Below, one piece after another: positions 6,489-8,602 of a stretch of 8,684 bases of DNA. The translations under genes and the position numbers were made by a program. Position 1 is the first letter of the stretch; each line of letters opens with the position of its first letter. Under the pieces are notes generated by a model. It was not told the origin of the DNA and ran no database searches. It worked only from the letters and a program-made list of their open reading frames with translations. Where the stretch lies: the IMG/VR virus record IMGVR_UViG_2778261453_000015, positions 1 through 8,684 of that record; one strand, given 5' to 3'. The stretch comes from a virus (Duplodnaviria > Heunggongvirae > Uroviricota > Caudoviricetes).

Positions 6489-7607
6489 TCAGGCTGCTTG
6501 ACTATTCTTACTGATTTTATTCTTATGCCGTCCCTGCAAAACTCCATACACATATTGTGCGATTTTTGCCGCAAATAGCGGTGGAACAGCATTCCCGATC
6601 TGCTTTGCAATCTCAGTTTTTGAACCGGTAAAAATGAAATTATCAGGAAAAGACATTAATCTCGCTGCCTCACGATGAGTTATTGGCCGATCCTCTTCCG
6701 GATGCAAATATCGCCCTTTCTCCGGTTTGAAAAACTCAGTACGAATCGTTACTGAAGGTCTGTCCCACCACAGACGCCCAAACAAATCGGTCCCTCCAGA
6801 TTTCTTTTTTAGCCAACACGCCGGGGTTATATCAGGTCTTTTTTTCTGTAAATCGAAACGGTTACCTCCTGGTGGAACCGCTTTATATCGCTCCAGAGAA
6901 ACAGGTGTGGGATTACGCCCAAAATGTAAGTTCAGCGGAGGAAGTTCATTACGAATATCAGTTCCAACAGGAGCTGGCAAGTCACCAATTGCATCACGCG
7001 TACAGACCCATTCTGGCAAAGCGACATCCTTATCAGGGGAACGATGCGTTGGTGCTGGCGGGAACGCCGGAATACTATGCACATCAAAGAGTTCTCGTTT
7101 GATACCGATTGCTATCGTTCGTTTTCTTGTCTGAGGTACTCCATAGTCAGCAGTATTCAACACCATTGGATTAAGCAGAATAAAGCCCATGGATTCAGCT
7201 CTAAACGTAATGTCCGCAAACTCATCGCTTATCAGCAATCCAGGGACATTTTCCATGACGAACATGCAAGCCCTTGAACGCTCAATGATATCCATATAAG
7301 GCTCCCACAATGCTCTTCGGTGATCACCATAACGATTCTTATTCAATAAGCTGAATCCTTGACACGGGGGGCCACCTATGACCACATCAGCCTCAGGAAC
7401 AGCATTACTGGATGTCCACTCCTCAATATTTGCCTGAACTCCATGCAAACCAAAATTGGCATTGTAGGTATTTATAGCTGCAGCATTATTATCAATAGCA
7501 AGGATACTTTCAAAGTGGTCAGACATCTCTCCATGAAGAAAACCATAAGATAATCCACCTGCCCCACAAAAGAGGTCTATCACTCTGAATTTATTTAATT
7601 CTTTCAT
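6489..7607 (-). CDS. DNA (cytosine-5)-methyltransferase, Type II, 372 aa, apparently intact
   Basis: Track ORF. Motif I DLFCGAGGLSYGF, motif IV GGPPCQGFS, motif VI ENVPGL, motif VIII QTRKR, motif X GNAVPP, all in canonical order. Confidence 0.9.
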   Translation of the reverse strand: MKELNKFRVIDLFCGAGGLSYGFLHGEMSDHFESILAIDNNAAAINTYNANFGLHGVQANIEEWTSSNAVPEADVVIGGPPCQGFSLLNKNRYGDHRRALWEPYMDIIERSRACMFVMENVPGLLISDEFADITFRAESMGFILLNPMVLNTADYGVPQTRKRTIAIGIKRELFDVHSIPAFPPAPTHRSPDKDVALPEWVCTRDAIGDLPAPVGTDIRNELPPLNLHFGRNPTPVSLERYKAVPPGGNRFDLQKKRPDITPACWLKKKSGGTDLFGRLWWDRPSVTIRTEFFKPEKGRYLHPEEDRPITHREAARLMSFPDNFIFTGSKTEIAKQIGNAVPPLFAAKIAQYVYGVLQGRHKNKISKNSQAA

Positions 7608-7676
7608 CCGCCCCCATATGCCTCAGATTAATGTTAAGCGTCTTGCAGGACGCGTAATGCTAACTGGGGCTTTTCT

Positions 7677-7712
7677 CTGTCTGCCTTACGGTGGCATGCC
7701 CGAGGCAGACAG
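7677..7712. repeat. 10-bp inverted repeat (CTGTCTGCCT ... AGGCAGACAG) flanking a 16-nt loop that contains GGCATGCC, in the leader upstream of the C5-MTase
   Basis: Direct reading. Potential stem-loop or protein-binding site. No U-run follows on either strand, so it is not a canonical terminator. Confidence 0.35.
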
Positions 7713-7770
7713 CCTCAAGCACCCGCAGCAATTCTACTTAACTCTCGCTTTACAGCAAACCGTTTTCACC

Positions 7771-7792
7771 CGATATGGGAATTCCCATATCG
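7771..7792. repeat. 22-bp perfect palindrome CGATATGGGAATTCCCATATCG (centred on GAATTC) between the 34-aa ORF and the C5-MTase
   Basis: Exactly self-complementary over 22 bp, which is unlikely by chance in 8.7 kb. Lies in the about 190-nt region that must hold the cassette promoter. Candidate operator for a dimeric regulator. Confidence 0.4.
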
Positions 7793-7799
7793 ACACAAA

Positions 7800-7904
7800 T
7801 TAACCACCGCGACGATCAATCAAAAACACAACCAGACAATAAATCGCCATAACAGCCACAACGGCCAGCGCGCCTTCCATTGCCAGCAAAATATCATCCG
7901 ACAT
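7800..7904 (-). CDS. Small hydrophobic protein, 34 aa, predicted single transmembrane helix
   Basis: Not in the ORF track. ATG 7904..7902 with GGAGGG Shine-Dalgarno 4-5 nt upstream, stop TAA 7802..7800. Translation MSDDILLAMEGALAVVAVMAIYCLVVFLIDRRGG has a hydrophobic core and a charged C-terminus. Confidence 0.4.
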   Translation of the reverse strand: MSDDILLAMEGALAVVAVMAIYCLVVFLIDRRGG

Positions 7905-7938
7905 ATTCCCTCCTTTTGTATACATTCCAGCCAGATGT

Positions 7939-8022
7939 TTATAACCAACGGCAAATTGAGTATACAATAATCGCGATCGCCATTGTTATCCCCACAATTG
8001 CAAATGCATCAGGCCAACTCAT
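7939..8022 (-). CDS. Small hydrophobic protein, 27 aa, predicted single transmembrane helix, coupled to the upstream DUF551 gene
   Basis: Not in the ORF track. ATG 8022..8020 overlaps the stop of the 8022..8492 ORF by 1 nt (TAATG), with AGGAGG Shine-Dalgarno 7 nt upstream. Translation MSWPDAFAIVGITMAIAIIVYSICRWL. Confidence 0.4.
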   Translation of the reverse strand: MSWPDAFAIVGITMAIAIIVYSICRWL

Positions 8023-8492
8023 TAACTCACCTCCTGCGGCGGTTCTGGTAGCGGCATCCAGTCGGTTACATTGCGACTCTGTGTTTCGAAAAATTCATCA
8101 CCATTGCGGACAATATCGAAAAACTCTCCGTCTCGATATTGCGCATAAAGAACGAATGCGCCATCACATAAAATAATTACGTGCTGACCGTCATCCGGCA
8201 TTCGCTCACTACAGCTTATCCAACCATCCAGAGTTACCGGATAGTTGGTTGACGTTTCCGAGATTTCCCGAAAATTATTGGTTGACGAACCCTTCTTTTC
8301 CCGAAAGTTTCCAGCCTGAAGCATGGCGGCGCTGTCTGGCGGGGCAGCATATAGCGGCACGTATATTTCCGGTTCCTTATCAGCACCGGGTTGCTCTTCC
8401 AGTGAGAATGTCTTTCCGGTAAATCGATTCATATAAAGCACGGGCTCTGCTTCCAGCGAAGCCTGAGCAACAAGGGCCAGTGCTAAATCCAA
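8022..8492 (-). CDS. DUF551-like phage protein (156 aa as drawn; true start uncertain)
   Basis: Track ORF. The C-terminal ...DWMPLPEPP motif and overall composition fit DUF551 as I recall it. The track start at 8492 is TTG with only a weak GAGG upstream; the frame is open upstream to 8558 with no ATG. Confidence 0.55.
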   Translation of the reverse strand: MDLALALVAQASLEAEPVLYMNRFTGKTFSLEEQPGADKEPEIYVPLYAAPPDSAAMLQAGNFREKKGSSTNNFREISETSTNYPVTLDGWISCSERMPDDGQHVIILCDGAFVLYAQYRDGEFFDIVRNGDEFFETQSRNVTDWMPLPEPPQEVS

Positions 8493-8530
8493 CTCAATTG
8501 CCTCGAGAGAATTTTTGAATGCTGTCTGTT

Positions 8531-8602
8531 TTACTGCAATTTCATCGCCTTTACATTTTCACTAACATGACTGATTAACTGCTCTTTTGTAAAAGTGGTC
8601 AT
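8531..8602 (-). CDS. Possible 23-aa ORF, or the displaced N-terminus of the DUF551 gene
   Basis: ATG 8602..8600 with strong AAGGAG Shine-Dalgarno 7 nt upstream and starting 2 nt after the upstream gene's stop. Translation MTTFTKEQLISHVSENVKAMKLQ. Its 3' end overlaps the open upstream extension of the DUF551 frame. Confidence 0.25.
   Translation of the reverse strand: MTTFTKEQLISHVSENVKAMKLQ

What the first reader, a model, noticed from the sequence alone, without database searches (positions are those of the whole stretch)
7800..8022. Two tandem unannotated single-helix membrane micro-ORFs (27 and 34 aa) with strong ribosome-binding sites
Both fall below the ORF-track size cutoff but have near-consensus Shine-Dalgarno sequences (AGGAGG, GGAGGG). 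The first is coupled to the DUF551 gene stop by a TAATG overlap. Both encode one hydrophobic helix with a shared V-x-x-x-MAI-x-x-x-V core (IVGITMAIAIIVYSI and AVVAVMAIYCLVVFL). Small membrane peptides of this size in prophages include type I toxins, holin-like or antiholin proteins, and superinfection-exclusion factors. Their position just before the RM cassette is suggestive but unexplained.
Basis: seen in the sequence. Interest (0 to 1): 0.55.

Follow-up and report, generated by a model that had tools for sequence, protein, structure and literature searches.

The report
Two conserved prophage membrane micro-proteins
Two tiny genes (27 and 34 codons) in a lambda-like prophage are real, conserved genes for single-helix membrane peptides of unknown function; they normally sit just upstream of a hok/sok toxin locus, whose toxin gene has been swapped here for a restriction-modification cassette.

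Summary
ORF27 (8022..7939, minus strand) and ORF34 (7904..7800, minus strand) exist as described, with AGGAGG and GGAGGG ribosome-binding sites and a TAATG overlap with the DUF551 stop.

Both look like real genes. ORF27 keeps exactly 27 codons in about 165 of 168 related loci, behind at least six different upstream sequences. Its in-frame pN/pS is 0.25, against 1.0 and 2.2 in the other sense frames. It is almost never annotated. ORF34 keeps 34 codons in two clades that share about 50% identity (pN/pS 0.43). RefSeq already annotates it (ECs_5710 in O157 Sakai). Its Sakai homologue is a published ribosome-profiling hit (XECs145, RCV 4.35 in LB).

The two peptides are not homologous to each other (hhalign probability 6%). 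They match no known family.

The type I toxin idea is not supported. I found no antisense RNA, no dedicated promoter and no occluded ribosome-binding site. The real type I locus is next door: the usual order is ORF27, ORF34, then hok/sok.

Here a 2.1-kb cassette (C5 methyltransferase plus NgoMIV-like endonuclease) replaced the mok/hok reading frames. The hok promoter, leader and terminator remain. So the link to the RM cassette is secondary.

Function is unknown. They are most likely accessory inner-membrane micro-proteins.

The parts
7939..8022 (-). ORF27: 27-codon gene for a single-pass membrane micro-protein (MSWPDAFAIVGITMAIAIIVYSICRWL). The ATG overlaps the DUF551 stop (TAATG).
   Evidence: The ORF is 27 codons in 86 of 87 loci of the first set and 78 of 80 metagenome loci. 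pN/pS is 0.25 in frame against 1.01 and 2.15 out of frame. Minimum-spanning-tree counts give 85 synonymous to 83 non-synonymous changes against 25% expected, p=8.5e-13.
8030..8035 (-). Shine-Dalgarno AGGAGG of ORF27, 7 nt before the ATG, inside the last codons of the DUF551 gene.
   Evidence: An SD-like purine run (GGAGG, GGAGA or GGGGA) precedes the ATG behind at least six different upstream sequences.
7800..7904 (-). ORF34: 34-codon gene for a single-pass membrane micro-protein (MSDDILLAMEGALAVVAVMAIYCLVVFLIDRRGG). It is a homologue of O157 Sakai ECs_5710 / XECs145.
   Evidence: pN/pS 0.43. Minimum-spanning-tree counts 29 synonymous to 40 non-synonymous, p=0.0027. Ribosome profiling of the Sakai homologue. 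AlphaFold2 single helix.
7908..7913 (-). Shine-Dalgarno GGAGGG (within AAGGAGGG) of ORF34.
   Evidence: Conserved as AAAGGAGGGAATATG or AAGGGAGGGAATATG in the MSDD clade. Unpaired in the minimum-free-energy fold.
8022..8602 (-). DUF551 gene upstream of ORF27. In this window it carries a 1-nt deletion (TTT to TT, near 8540) that splits it into 22-codon and 156-codon pieces.
   Evidence: Pfam PF04448, E=1.3e-20. Frameshift relative to the intact 194-aa homologue of NZ_CP145714.
7772..7791 (.). 20-bp perfect palindrome GATATGGGAATTCCCATATC between the ORF34 stop and the hok promoter.
   Evidence: Conserved in MSDD-clade loci. As RNA it folds into a hairpin of -10.5 kcal/mol. Function unknown.
7731..7758 (-). 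hok-type promoter: -35 TTGCTG (7758..7753), 16-nt spacer, -10 TAGAAT (7736..7731).
   Evidence: Read from the sequence. Conserved in 933W and in loci with intact hok. Promoter activity is inferred.
7620..7724 (-). Remnant of the hok mRNA 5' leader, kept up to the mok ribosome-binding site (..AATCTGAGGC). Most of the Sok-complementary stretch is kept, but the sok promoter is lost.
   Evidence: Rfam RF01794, 67.9 bits. The same model hits the mok/hok strand of 933W with 113.5 bits. Alignments to 933W and to L147.
5521..7619 (-). Inserted RM cassette that replaces the mok/hok reading frames. C5 DNA methyltransferase at 7607..6489. NgoMIV-family endonuclease at 6475..5598, frameshifted near 6222.
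   Evidence: Pfam PF00145 (E=1e-54) and PF09015 (E=7e-86). Flanks are collinear with hok-intact loci, where 287 nt stand in place of this 2.1 kb. Frameshift shown.
5493..5520 (-). Retained 3' terminator of the hok transcription unit (TAACCCGCTTCGGCGGGTTTTGTTTTTT).
   Evidence: Aligned to the hok-intact locus L147. Coordinates.

Best explanation
ORF27 and ORF34 are two unrelated, genuine protein-coding genes. Each makes one short inner-membrane helix.

They are accessory cargo of temperate enterobacterial phages. The cargo sits at the end of the variable ea22/eaa/DUF551 gene arrays of lambdoid prophages. ORF27 also occurs in P1-like IncY phage-plasmids.

ORF27 is translated from its own Shine-Dalgarno sequence, which lies in the last codons of the upstream gene. 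Where the start overlaps that gene's stop, translation probably proceeds by termination-reinitiation. ORF34 is translated independently from an exposed strong Shine-Dalgarno sequence 35 nt further on.

The peptides probably insert with the N-terminus out and the C-terminus in. The N-termini are acidic (MxWPE/D, MSDD). An Arg follows each helix.

The most likely mode of action (inferred, not shown) is that of other bacterial and phage membrane micro-proteins: binding to and modulating a larger membrane protein or the membrane itself. They do not act as an antisense-controlled toxin.

Their standard downstream neighbour is a separate transcription unit, the hok/sok type I toxin-antitoxin locus. 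In this window a C5-methyltransferase/NgoMIV-like RM cassette replaced the mok/hok reading frames between the hok leader and the hok terminator. The adjacency to RM is therefore a by-product of cassette exchange, not a functional link.
For: What is shown:

- Fixed ORF length. ORF27 is 27 codons in 86 of 87 loci from genomes and IMG/VR and in 78 of 80 metagenome loci. The stop position is invariant while its identity varies (TAA or TGA).
- Selection on ORF27. There are 46 unique DNA versions. pN/pS is 0.25 in frame against 1.01 and 2.15 in the other sense frames. Third codon positions vary in 23 of 27 codons. Tree-edge counts give 85 synonymous to 83 non-synonymous changes against 25% expected (p=8.5e-13). 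Between the three main clades pS is 0.64-0.69 and pN is about 0.20.
- Independence from the upstream gene. ORF27 keeps an SD plus ATG behind at least six different upstream sequences. It follows genes annotated as DUF551, Ea22, EaA/eaa or pyrophosphohydrolase.
- Spread of ORF27. It occurs in 94 phage records, 181 plasmid records, the two examined being IncY, at least 517 IMG/VR contigs and 200 metagenome contigs.
- ORF34. It is 34 codons in two clades of about 50% identity. pN/pS is 0.43 and tree-edge counts give p=0.0027. It is annotated in RefSeq.
- Translation of ORF34. The Sakai homologue XECs145 had RPKM 79 (RNA) and 346 (ribosome footprints), RCV 4.35 and coverage 0.99 in LB. It was predicted to be inner-membrane with one TM helix (PMC5597208).
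- Helix and hydropathy.
- Tandem pair. It is present in 673 of 5426 complete E. coli genomes at only 74-80% nucleotide identity to this allele, yet both ORFs are intact here.
- Ancestral order ORF27-ORF34-hok. See and the closest allele L176.
- RM replacement boundaries.
Against: - No function has been measured for either peptide. The 'modulator of a membrane partner' step is analogy only.
- ORF27 itself has no direct translation evidence. The Sakai study only considered ORFs of at least 30 aa.
- One antisense frame across ORF27 shows the same synonymous excess (76:79). The choice of strand therefore rests on the conserved SD, start and stop. The antisense ORF has no conserved boundaries.
- ORF34 diversity is low: 12 unique DNAs and 5 cluster representatives in 1.84 billion proteins.
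- One ORF34 clade lacks an SD before its ATG.
- ORF34 was truncated without apparent consequence in the QueH-linked copies.
- The commonest ORF27 allele next to ORF34 carries an Asp inside the helix.
- In this window the DUF551 gene is frameshifted, so coupling to it may be weakened.
Confidence: 0.72

Rival explanations
1. They are membrane-damaging peptides: type I-toxin-like, or holin/antiholin-like helpers of lysis. On this view they kill or permeabilise the cell when expressed during prophage induction.
For: - Size and hydrophobicity match known type I toxins of 19-50 aa (general knowledge).
- They lie beside a hok/sok locus.
- hokW-sokW aids phage release after induction (PMC8621323).
Against: - No Hok or other family match.
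- ORF27 has no 5' UTR of its own.
- The ORF34 SD is exposed.
- No antisense promoter or terminator above chance: 1 found against 1.4 expected, and no terminators.
- The antisense strand is unstructured, z=0.11.
- The ORF34 homologue is well translated in uninduced Sakai cultures, RCV 4.35. That is hard to reconcile with strong toxicity.
- The genes lie upstream of Q, not in the lysis cassette.
Confidence: 0.12
2. They are accessory parts of the hok/sok module. For example, they could be membrane-level modulators of, or immunity to, Hok. On this view prophage hok loci would be three- or four-gene units.
For: - ORF34 was found only between ORF27 and the hok promoter: about 75 of 80 ORF34-seeded loci contain a recognisable ORF34, nearly all with ORF27 35 nt upstream and the hok leader 76 nt downstream.
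- 44 of 84 ORF27-seeded loci have the hok leader within 700 nt.
- In 933W, ORF27 ends 41 nt before the hok leader.
Against: - 40 of 84 ORF27 loci, and the two IncY phage-plasmid copies examined, have no hok downstream.
- Both ORFs stay intact with strong SDs in three distinct RM-replaced loci that have lost hok: the window, NZ_CP145714 and NZ_CP027338.
- Most hok loci next to ORF27 have no ORF34 between them.
- hok has its own promoter downstream of both ORFs.
- Linkage can be explained by co-inheritance of a mosaic block.
Confidence: 0.1
3. One or both ORFs matter only in cis, or not at all. Translation might keep ribosomes on the mRNA, prevent Rho termination, or insulate the hok promoter from read-through. 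On this view the peptide is irrelevant, or ORF34 is a decaying remnant.
For: - ORF34 has low diversity and a narrow distribution.
- One ORF34 clade has no SD at its ATG.
- ORF34 is truncated in the QueH-linked lineage.
- An Asp-in-helix ORF27 allele is common.
- A conserved hairpin-forming palindrome follows ORF34.
Against: - Purifying selection acts on the amino-acid sequence in the coding frame only. Synonymous sites are near saturation for ORF27.
- Residues at both helix ends are conserved across clades: W3, P4, F7, G11, I23, C24, R25, W26 in ORF27; Y22, C23, D30 in ORF34.
- Exact length is maintained in hundreds of loci.
Confidence: 0.08

Closest known systems
XECs145 / ECs_5710 of E. coli O157:H7 Sakai prophage Sp6 (Huecker et al. 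2017, PMC5597208; RefSeq YP_009502606.1, WP_001278450.1)
   Same: It is the same family as ORF34. The 34-aa peptide is 76% identical. It sits in the same position, between the unannotated ORF27 and the hok promoter and downstream of a DUF551 gene. Translation was detected by ribosome profiling, and it was predicted to be inner-membrane with one TM helix.
   Different: The published ORF model is a 54-aa form extended upstream. RefSeq and the conserved SD support the 34-aa form. In Sakai the neighbour is an intact mok/hok locus. In this window that locus is replaced by an RM cassette. No function is known for either.
Hok/Sok type I toxin-antitoxin loci (hokW-sokW of 933W/Sp5; Pfam PF01848; Rfam RF01794)
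   Same: These are small hydrophobic single-helix inner-membrane peptides encoded in the same prophage block. The locus is physically adjacent: the hok leader starts 76 nt after the ORF34 stop.
   Different: There is no sequence similarity to Hok. ORF27 and ORF34 are about half the length of Hok. They have no mok-like overlapping frame, no antisense RNA, and no folded leader that hides the ribosome-binding site. They are expressed as part of, or right behind, the upstream operon.
Other E. coli type I toxins of similar size (Ldr, Ibs, TisB, ShoB, DinQ, Zor). This comparison is from general knowledge.
   Same: They are 19-35 aa long, have one hydrophobic helix and are often missed by annotation.
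   Different: Those toxins have dedicated promoters, long structured 5' UTRs and a cognate sRNA. None of these was found here. No family model matched.
Regulatory inner-membrane micro-proteins (AcrZ, MgtS, MgrB, KdpF, CydX). For comparison, prophage-encoded small proteins can also inhibit inner-membrane proteins, as DicB does (PMC6832061, title and abstract listed; DicB is not claimed here to be a membrane helix).
   Same: The size class and single-helix architecture match. Residues at the membrane interfaces are conserved while the mid-helix is variable. The ORF34 homologue is expressed in the uninduced lysogen.
   Different: There is no homology. The KdpF hit has E=0.024, below the family cut-off, and merely reflects hydrophobic composition. 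No partner protein is known.
Phage holins / antiholins
   Same: They are small phage-encoded membrane proteins.
   Different: ORF27 and ORF34 are not in the lysis cassette. They lie upstream of RusA and Q. They are much shorter than typical holins and have no dual-start motif. ORF34 is translated without induction.

Membership tests
Genuine protein-coding small ORF | Reading frame, length, start and stop conserved in diverged relatives | tested here: met
   ORF27 is 27 codons in 86 of 87 and 78 of 80 loci. ORF34 is 34 codons in all 80 recognised copies across two clades.
Genuine protein-coding small ORF | Excess of synonymous over non-synonymous change, specific to the coding frame | tested here: met
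   ORF27 pN/pS is 0.25 against 1.01 and 2.15. ORF34 is 0.43 against 0.75 and 1.19. Tree-edge binomial tests give p=8.5e-13 and p=0.0027. Caveat: one antisense frame of ORF27 mimics the signal but has no conserved ORF boundaries.
Genuine protein-coding small ORF | Ribosome occupancy or detected protein | tested here: inconclusive
   The ORF34 homologue XECs145 has RCV 4.35 and coverage 0.99 in LB (PMC5597208). ORF27 is below that study's 30-aa cut-off, so there is no direct evidence for it. This exact allele was not assayed.
Type I toxin-antitoxin toxin | Small hydrophobic peptide with one transmembrane helix | tested here: met
Type I toxin-antitoxin toxin | Cognate antisense or divergent sRNA antitoxin with its own promoter and terminator | tested here: not met
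   No Rfam family overlaps the ORFs, even at E<=1. There is one promoter-like site against 1.4 expected, and no terminator. The antisense strand folds with z=0.11. These are consensus-level scans, so an atypical sRNA cannot be excluded.
Type I toxin-antitoxin toxin | Own promoter and a structured 5' UTR that limits translation | tested here: not met
   The ORF27 ATG overlaps the upstream stop codon. The ORF34 SD lies in an unpaired loop, and the region folds less stably than shuffled controls, z=+1.08.
Type I toxin-antitoxin toxin | Toxicity on overexpression, neutralised by the RNA | not testable with these tools
   This needs an experiment.
Hok/Gef family (PF01848) | Match to the Hok profile, about 50 aa with a conserved periplasmic C-terminal part, and an overlapping mok frame | tested here: not met
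   No Pfam hit at E<=0.1 for either peptide. The lengths are 27 and 34 aa. True Hok ORFs (MKQQKAMLIALIVICLTVIVTALVTRKDLCEVRIRTGQTEVAVF..) lie downstream in related loci.
ECs_5710 / XECs145 small-protein family (ORF34 only) | Sequence similarity over the full 34 aa and the same genomic position | tested here: met
   76% identity to the Sakai and H1 peptide. phmmer E=2e-8 to 4e-6 against cluster representatives. Same flanks.
Holin / antiholin | Encoded in the late lysis cassette next to the endolysin, downstream of Q | tested here: not met
   The gene order in the window is DUF551, ORF27, ORF34, (hok remnant/RM), DUF968, RusA, Q. The ORFs are about 4.3 kb upstream of Q in the early region.

The most novel reading that the evidence does not exclude
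ORF27 is a widespread, essentially unannotated 27-aa membrane protein family of lambdoid phages and P1-like phage-plasmids. Together with ORF34 it may form a functional unit with the adjacent hok/sok locus, for example by tuning Hok insertion or protecting the lysogen's membrane. Prophage hok loci would then be multi-gene membrane modules. The exchange of hok for an RM cassette under the hok promoter and leader would be a swap of one addiction device for another within the same scaffold.
Probability: 0.1. Interest if true: 0.6.

Novelty: new member of a known kind. Interest (0 to 1): 0.35.

Why it matters
ORF27 is conserved and under purifying selection. It is present in about a hundred deposited phage genomes, in P1-like phage-plasmids and in hundreds of viral and metagenome contigs, yet almost no annotation records it. 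Adding it would correct many Stx-phage and prophage annotations and give a concrete candidate for small-protein studies.

ORF34 already has translation evidence but no function. The work also removes a false lead: the RM adjacency is not functional.

It also documents a tidy case of cassette exchange. A type II RM system replaced the toxin gene inside a hok/sok transcription unit. This is relevant to how addiction and defence modules trade places in prophage hot spots.

None of this overturns current understanding. Phage-encoded membrane micro-proteins of unknown function are a known and growing class.

Tried and rejected
- Pfam, PHROGs, NCBIfam and PADLOC gave no family. The only hits were sub-threshold matches of hydrophobic composition: PTR2, SCIMP, KdpF, ATP synthase c and Cmr5.
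- PDB sequence search found nothing at E<=10.
- Homology between the two peptides was rejected: hhalign probability 6%.
- A full-text search for the ORF27 motif VYSICRW found no paper. The supplements of the EDL933 translatome study (PMC4765031) contain neither peptide.
- The exo-xis/ea22 literature (PMC10789677) and the hokW-sokW paper (PMC8621323) do not mention these ORFs.
- The antisense 98-aa ORF on the plus strand (7880..8176) was rejected as a gene. Its counterparts range from 0 to 168 aa with no conserved start or stop.
- An antisense promoter-like site at 7880-7907 (+) was rejected as chance. One site was found against 1.4 expected, and its hexamers are the reverse complement of the ORF34 start region.
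- A functional link between the micro-ORFs and the RM cassette was rejected. The cassette is a secondary replacement and also occurs behind QueH without them.
Full report
**1. Observation**

All genes in the window run on the minus strand and form a lambdoid early ('nin-like') region. The order is:
- DUF551 gene, 8602..8022
- ORF27, 8022..7939
- ORF34, 7904..7800
- a 192-nt spacer
- C5 DNA methyltransferase, 7607..6489
- NgoMIV-family endonuclease, 6475..5598
- a 90-aa ORF
- DUF968
- RusA
- Q antiterminator

ORF27 encodes MSWPDAFAIVGITMAIAIIVYSICRWL and ORF34 encodes MSDDILLAMEGALAVVAVMAIYCLVVFLIDRRGG.

Each peptide is one hydrophobic helix. The best 17-residue Kyte-Doolittle means are 2.49 and 3.10. 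AlphaFold2 models ORF34 as a single helix, residues 2-32, with pLDDT 92.

**2. ORF27 is a real gene**

In phage 933W an ORF of the same length (MTWPEAFANVGTVMAVVLVVYSICRWR) follows a different, non-DUF551 gene.

Pattern-plus-tblastn scans recovered many relatives:
- 7 loci in species-representative genomes, from Escherichia and Shigella. Two of these are short contigs, probably contaminants, in assemblies of other taxa.
- At least 517 in IMG/VR.
- 200 in metagenomes.

tblastn found it in 94 phage records. It also found 181 plasmid records, mostly ~93-110 kb non-mobilizable plasmids of E. coli and Salmonella; the two examined are IncY, P1-like phage-plasmids. In nearly all of these records it is not annotated.

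The ORF is exactly 27 codons in 86 of 87 loci of the first set and 78 of 80 metagenome loci. The three exceptions are read-throughs. It keeps an SD plus start behind at least six unrelated upstream sequences.

Selection evidence:
- Across 46 unique DNA versions, in-frame pN/pS is 0.25 against 1.01 and 2.15 in the other sense frames.
- Counting changes only along a minimum spanning tree gives 85 synonymous to 83 non-synonymous, against 25% expected (p=8.5e-13).
- Between the three main clades synonymous sites are near saturation (pS 0.64-0.69), while pN is about 0.20.

One antisense frame shows the same ratio (76:79). This is a geometric artefact of shared wobble positions. That frame has no conserved start or stop, and its ORFs range from 0 to 168 aa. 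The sense ORF is therefore the gene.

M1, P4, G11, I23, C24 and R25 are unchanged in every variant seen. W3, A6, F7, V20, Y21 and W26 change only in rare variants (for example W3L, A6V, F7L, Y21F, W26C). The mid-helix varies among hydrophobic residues.

**3. ORF34 is very likely a real gene**

ORF34 has a narrow distribution. phmmer against 1.84 billion cluster representatives found only 5 relatives. tblastn against phage records gave 4 weak hits. In contrast, IMG/VR holds 406 copies, and the ORF27+ORF34 pair is in 673 of 5426 complete E. coli genomes, at 1-5 copies each.

The 34-codon length is kept in two clades of about 50% identity, MSDD.. and MWEV... In-frame pN/pS is 0.43 against 0.75 and 1.19, and the tree-edge test gives p=0.0027.

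It is not unannotated:
- The exact window peptide is WP_097921334.1.
- The common allele is WP_001278450.1.
- In O157 Sakai it is ECs_5710, in prophage Sp6.

Huecker et al. 2017 (PMC5597208) reported the Sakai copy as translated intergenic ORF XECs145. Their values were:

| Condition | RNA RPKM | Footprint RPKM | RCV | Coverage |
|---|---|---|---|---|
| LB | 79.1 | 346.1 | 4.35 | 0.99 |
| BHI | 121.3 | 150.1 | 1.14 | 0.84 |
| Cold/salt stress | 73.3 | 1.1 | 0.01 | 0.37 |

They predicted it to be inner-membrane with one TM helix. Their pipeline only considered ORFs of at least 30 aa, so ORF27 could not have been found.

Weak points for ORF34:
- The MWEV clade lacks an SD before its ATG. It has GGGAGG followed by a GTG five codons further in.
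- ORF34 is cut down to its last seven codons in a QueH-linked lineage.

**4. The two peptides are not related to each other or to known families**

hhalign of the two family alignments gives 6% probability of homology. The 'V-x-x-x-MAI-x-x-x-V' resemblance is specific to this allele. It is absent from the commonest alleles.

Pfam, PHROGs, NCBIfam, PADLOC and PDB gave no significant match.

**5. Surroundings: a hok/sok locus whose toxin gene was replaced**

Rfam RF01794 (named 'sok') hits 7724..7544 on the minus strand with 67.9 bits. In 933W the same model hits the mokW/hokW strand with 113.5 bits and ends at the hok ATG. That is opposite to the annotated sokW. So the model describes the hok mRNA leader.

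In related loci the order is ORF27, 35 nt, ORF34, 76 nt, hok leader, mok/hok. Without ORF34, the order is ORF27, 41 nt, hok leader.

The window keeps:
- the hok promoter: -35 TTGCTG, 16-nt spacer, -10 TAGAAT, at 7758..7731
- the leader up to the mok ribosome-binding site, 7724..7620
- the hok terminator, 5520..5493

The 287 nt that hold mok/hok in intact loci (for example L147) are replaced by the 2.1-kb RM cassette, 7619..5521. The sok promoter falls in the deleted part (inferred from the 933W annotation).

This junction occurs in 60 of 5426 complete E. coli genomes. In O157:H7 strains it also sits behind QueH, without ORF27. The closest allele of the window's micro-ORF pair is metagenome contig OBWF01001590.1. 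There ORF34 differs by one residue, and an intact mok/hok follows. The RM adjacency is therefore secondary.

**6. How it most likely works**

Shown:
- Both are conserved coding ORFs with strong SDs.
- ORF27 starts on or next to the upstream stop codon.
- The ORF34 SD is unpaired in the predicted fold.
- The ORF34 homologue is translated in uninduced lysogens.

Inferred:
- ORF27 is made by coupled or independent initiation at the end of the ea22/DUF551 array, and ORF34 by independent initiation.
- Both insert N-out/C-in. The N-termini are acidic, an Arg follows each helix, and aromatic residues sit at both interfaces.
- They act as membrane micro-proteins that bind a larger membrane protein or alter the membrane.

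I put about 0.85 on ORF27 and about 0.8 on ORF34 being functional proteins. I put only about 0.3 on any particular downstream role, such as superinfection exclusion or transporter or receptor modulation.

**7. Rivals**

- Type I toxin or holin-like killer (0.12). The evidence against is the lack of an own UTR, antisense RNA or structured leader, no family match, translation without induction, and the position upstream of Q.
- Hok-module accessory (0.10). ORF34 is always linked to hok, and ORF27 is linked in 44 of 84 loci. However, 40 of 84 ORF27 loci and the two IncY phage-plasmid copies examined have no hok. Both ORFs also stay intact in three RM-replaced loci.
- Cis-only or decaying ORFs (0.08). 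Frame-specific selection on the peptide argues against this, more strongly for ORF27 than for ORF34.

**8. Comparison and novelty**

ORF34 is a member of the already described XECs145/ECs_5710 family, whose function is unknown. ORF27 is, as far as these searches show, an undescribed and unannotated family of a known kind: phage-encoded membrane micro-proteins. Neither is a member of the Hok family, nor, on present evidence, of type I toxins generally.

Interest is moderate to low at 0.35. The finding gives a useful annotation fix, a clean candidate for small-protein work and a neat cassette-exchange example. No surprising mechanism has been demonstrated.

Noticed in passing
window 5493-7758 (hok promoter 7731-7758, leader 7620-7724, RM cassette 5521-7619, hok terminator 5493-5520): A C5-methyltransferase/NgoMIV-like RM cassette sits exactly where mok/hok should be, between a retained hok promoter and leader and the hok terminator. 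One addiction module has replaced another, and the methyltransferase may now be transcribed from the hok promoter. The junction is in 60 of 5426 complete E. coli genomes.
   Followed up: partly
window ~6222 (REase) and ~8540 (DUF551): Both genes carry a 1-nt deletion relative to NZ_CP145714: ATAGAAAAAACC becomes ATA-AAAAAACC, and AAATTTGCA becomes AAA-TTGCA. Both are therefore frameshifted. The methyltransferase is intact. This could be an orphan methylase after REase inactivation, or homopolymer sequencing errors.
   Followed up: partly
window 7772-7791: A perfect 20-bp palindrome, GATATGGGAATTCCCATATC (EcoRI site at the centre), lies between the ORF34 stop and the hok -35. It is conserved in all MSDD-clade loci and absent from the MWEV clade and 933W. 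As RNA it folds into a hairpin of -10.5 kcal/mol with no U-tract. It could be an operator, an mRNA 3' stabiliser or an insulator.
   Followed up: partly
L002 (933W) 2887-3061; window 7544-7724: Rfam RF01794, named 'sok antitoxin', matches the strand of mok/hok and ends at the hok ATG. In practice it models the hok mRNA leader, not the Sok RNA strand annotated in 933W.
   Followed up: yes
L075 and L077, about 1580-3000: A different C5 methyltransferase (MNVIDLFSGVGGLSLGAARAGF.., 381 aa) follows ORF27. Its cassette breaks the hok leader after the first hairpin. This looks like a second, independent methylase insertion into a hok locus.
   Followed up: partly
L174, L175 (E. coli O39:NM F8704-2; O157:H7 Z563) 800-1000: The hok-leader::methyltransferase unit also lies directly behind queH. 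Only the last seven codons (MDHLSD*) of an MWEV-clade ORF34 are left, so the recombination breakpoint falls inside ORF34.
   Followed up: yes
L171, L172 (IncY plasmids NZ_CP095126, NZ_CP149144) 2501-2581: ORF27 (MSWPEAFTTVGIVMAAALGLYSICRWW) is also present, unannotated, in P1-like IncY phage-plasmids of E. coli and Salmonella. It follows DUF551 or eaa genes and has no hok downstream. It occurs in 181 plasmid records in all, mostly ~93-110 kb and non-mobilizable.
   Followed up: partly
L170 (Sakai Sp6) 2344-2427 and 47 further loci: The commonest ORF27 allele next to ORF34 is MIWPEAFAITGVAIAIDFLVYVICRWG (48 identical copies). It has an Asp in the middle of the helix and Ile in place of the usual Met14. 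It could be a degenerate allele or a functional variant.
   Followed up: no
L020, L026, L056, about 130-250 nt after ORF27: The MWEV clade of ORF34 has no SD before its ATG. It does have GGGAGG followed by an in-frame GTG five codons later, which suggests a 29-aa product in that clade.
   Followed up: partly
window 451-1224 and 1253-2317 (minus strand): Downstream of Q there is a 354-aa ORF that looks like an N6/N4 DNA methylase. After it come two small ORFs (112 aa and 124 aa) whose layout resembles a toxin-antitoxin pair. This is read from the ORF translations only. No family search was run on them.
   Followed up: no
window 5148-5420 (minus strand): A 90-aa ORF (MAQKTKLHNSDTDLAIRHGRRSHVFKTDWYQHPPCTEEQAEWL..) lies between the hok terminator and DUF968. 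It has no Pfam or PADLOC match but is conserved at the same position in hok-intact loci (for example L064).
   Followed up: no
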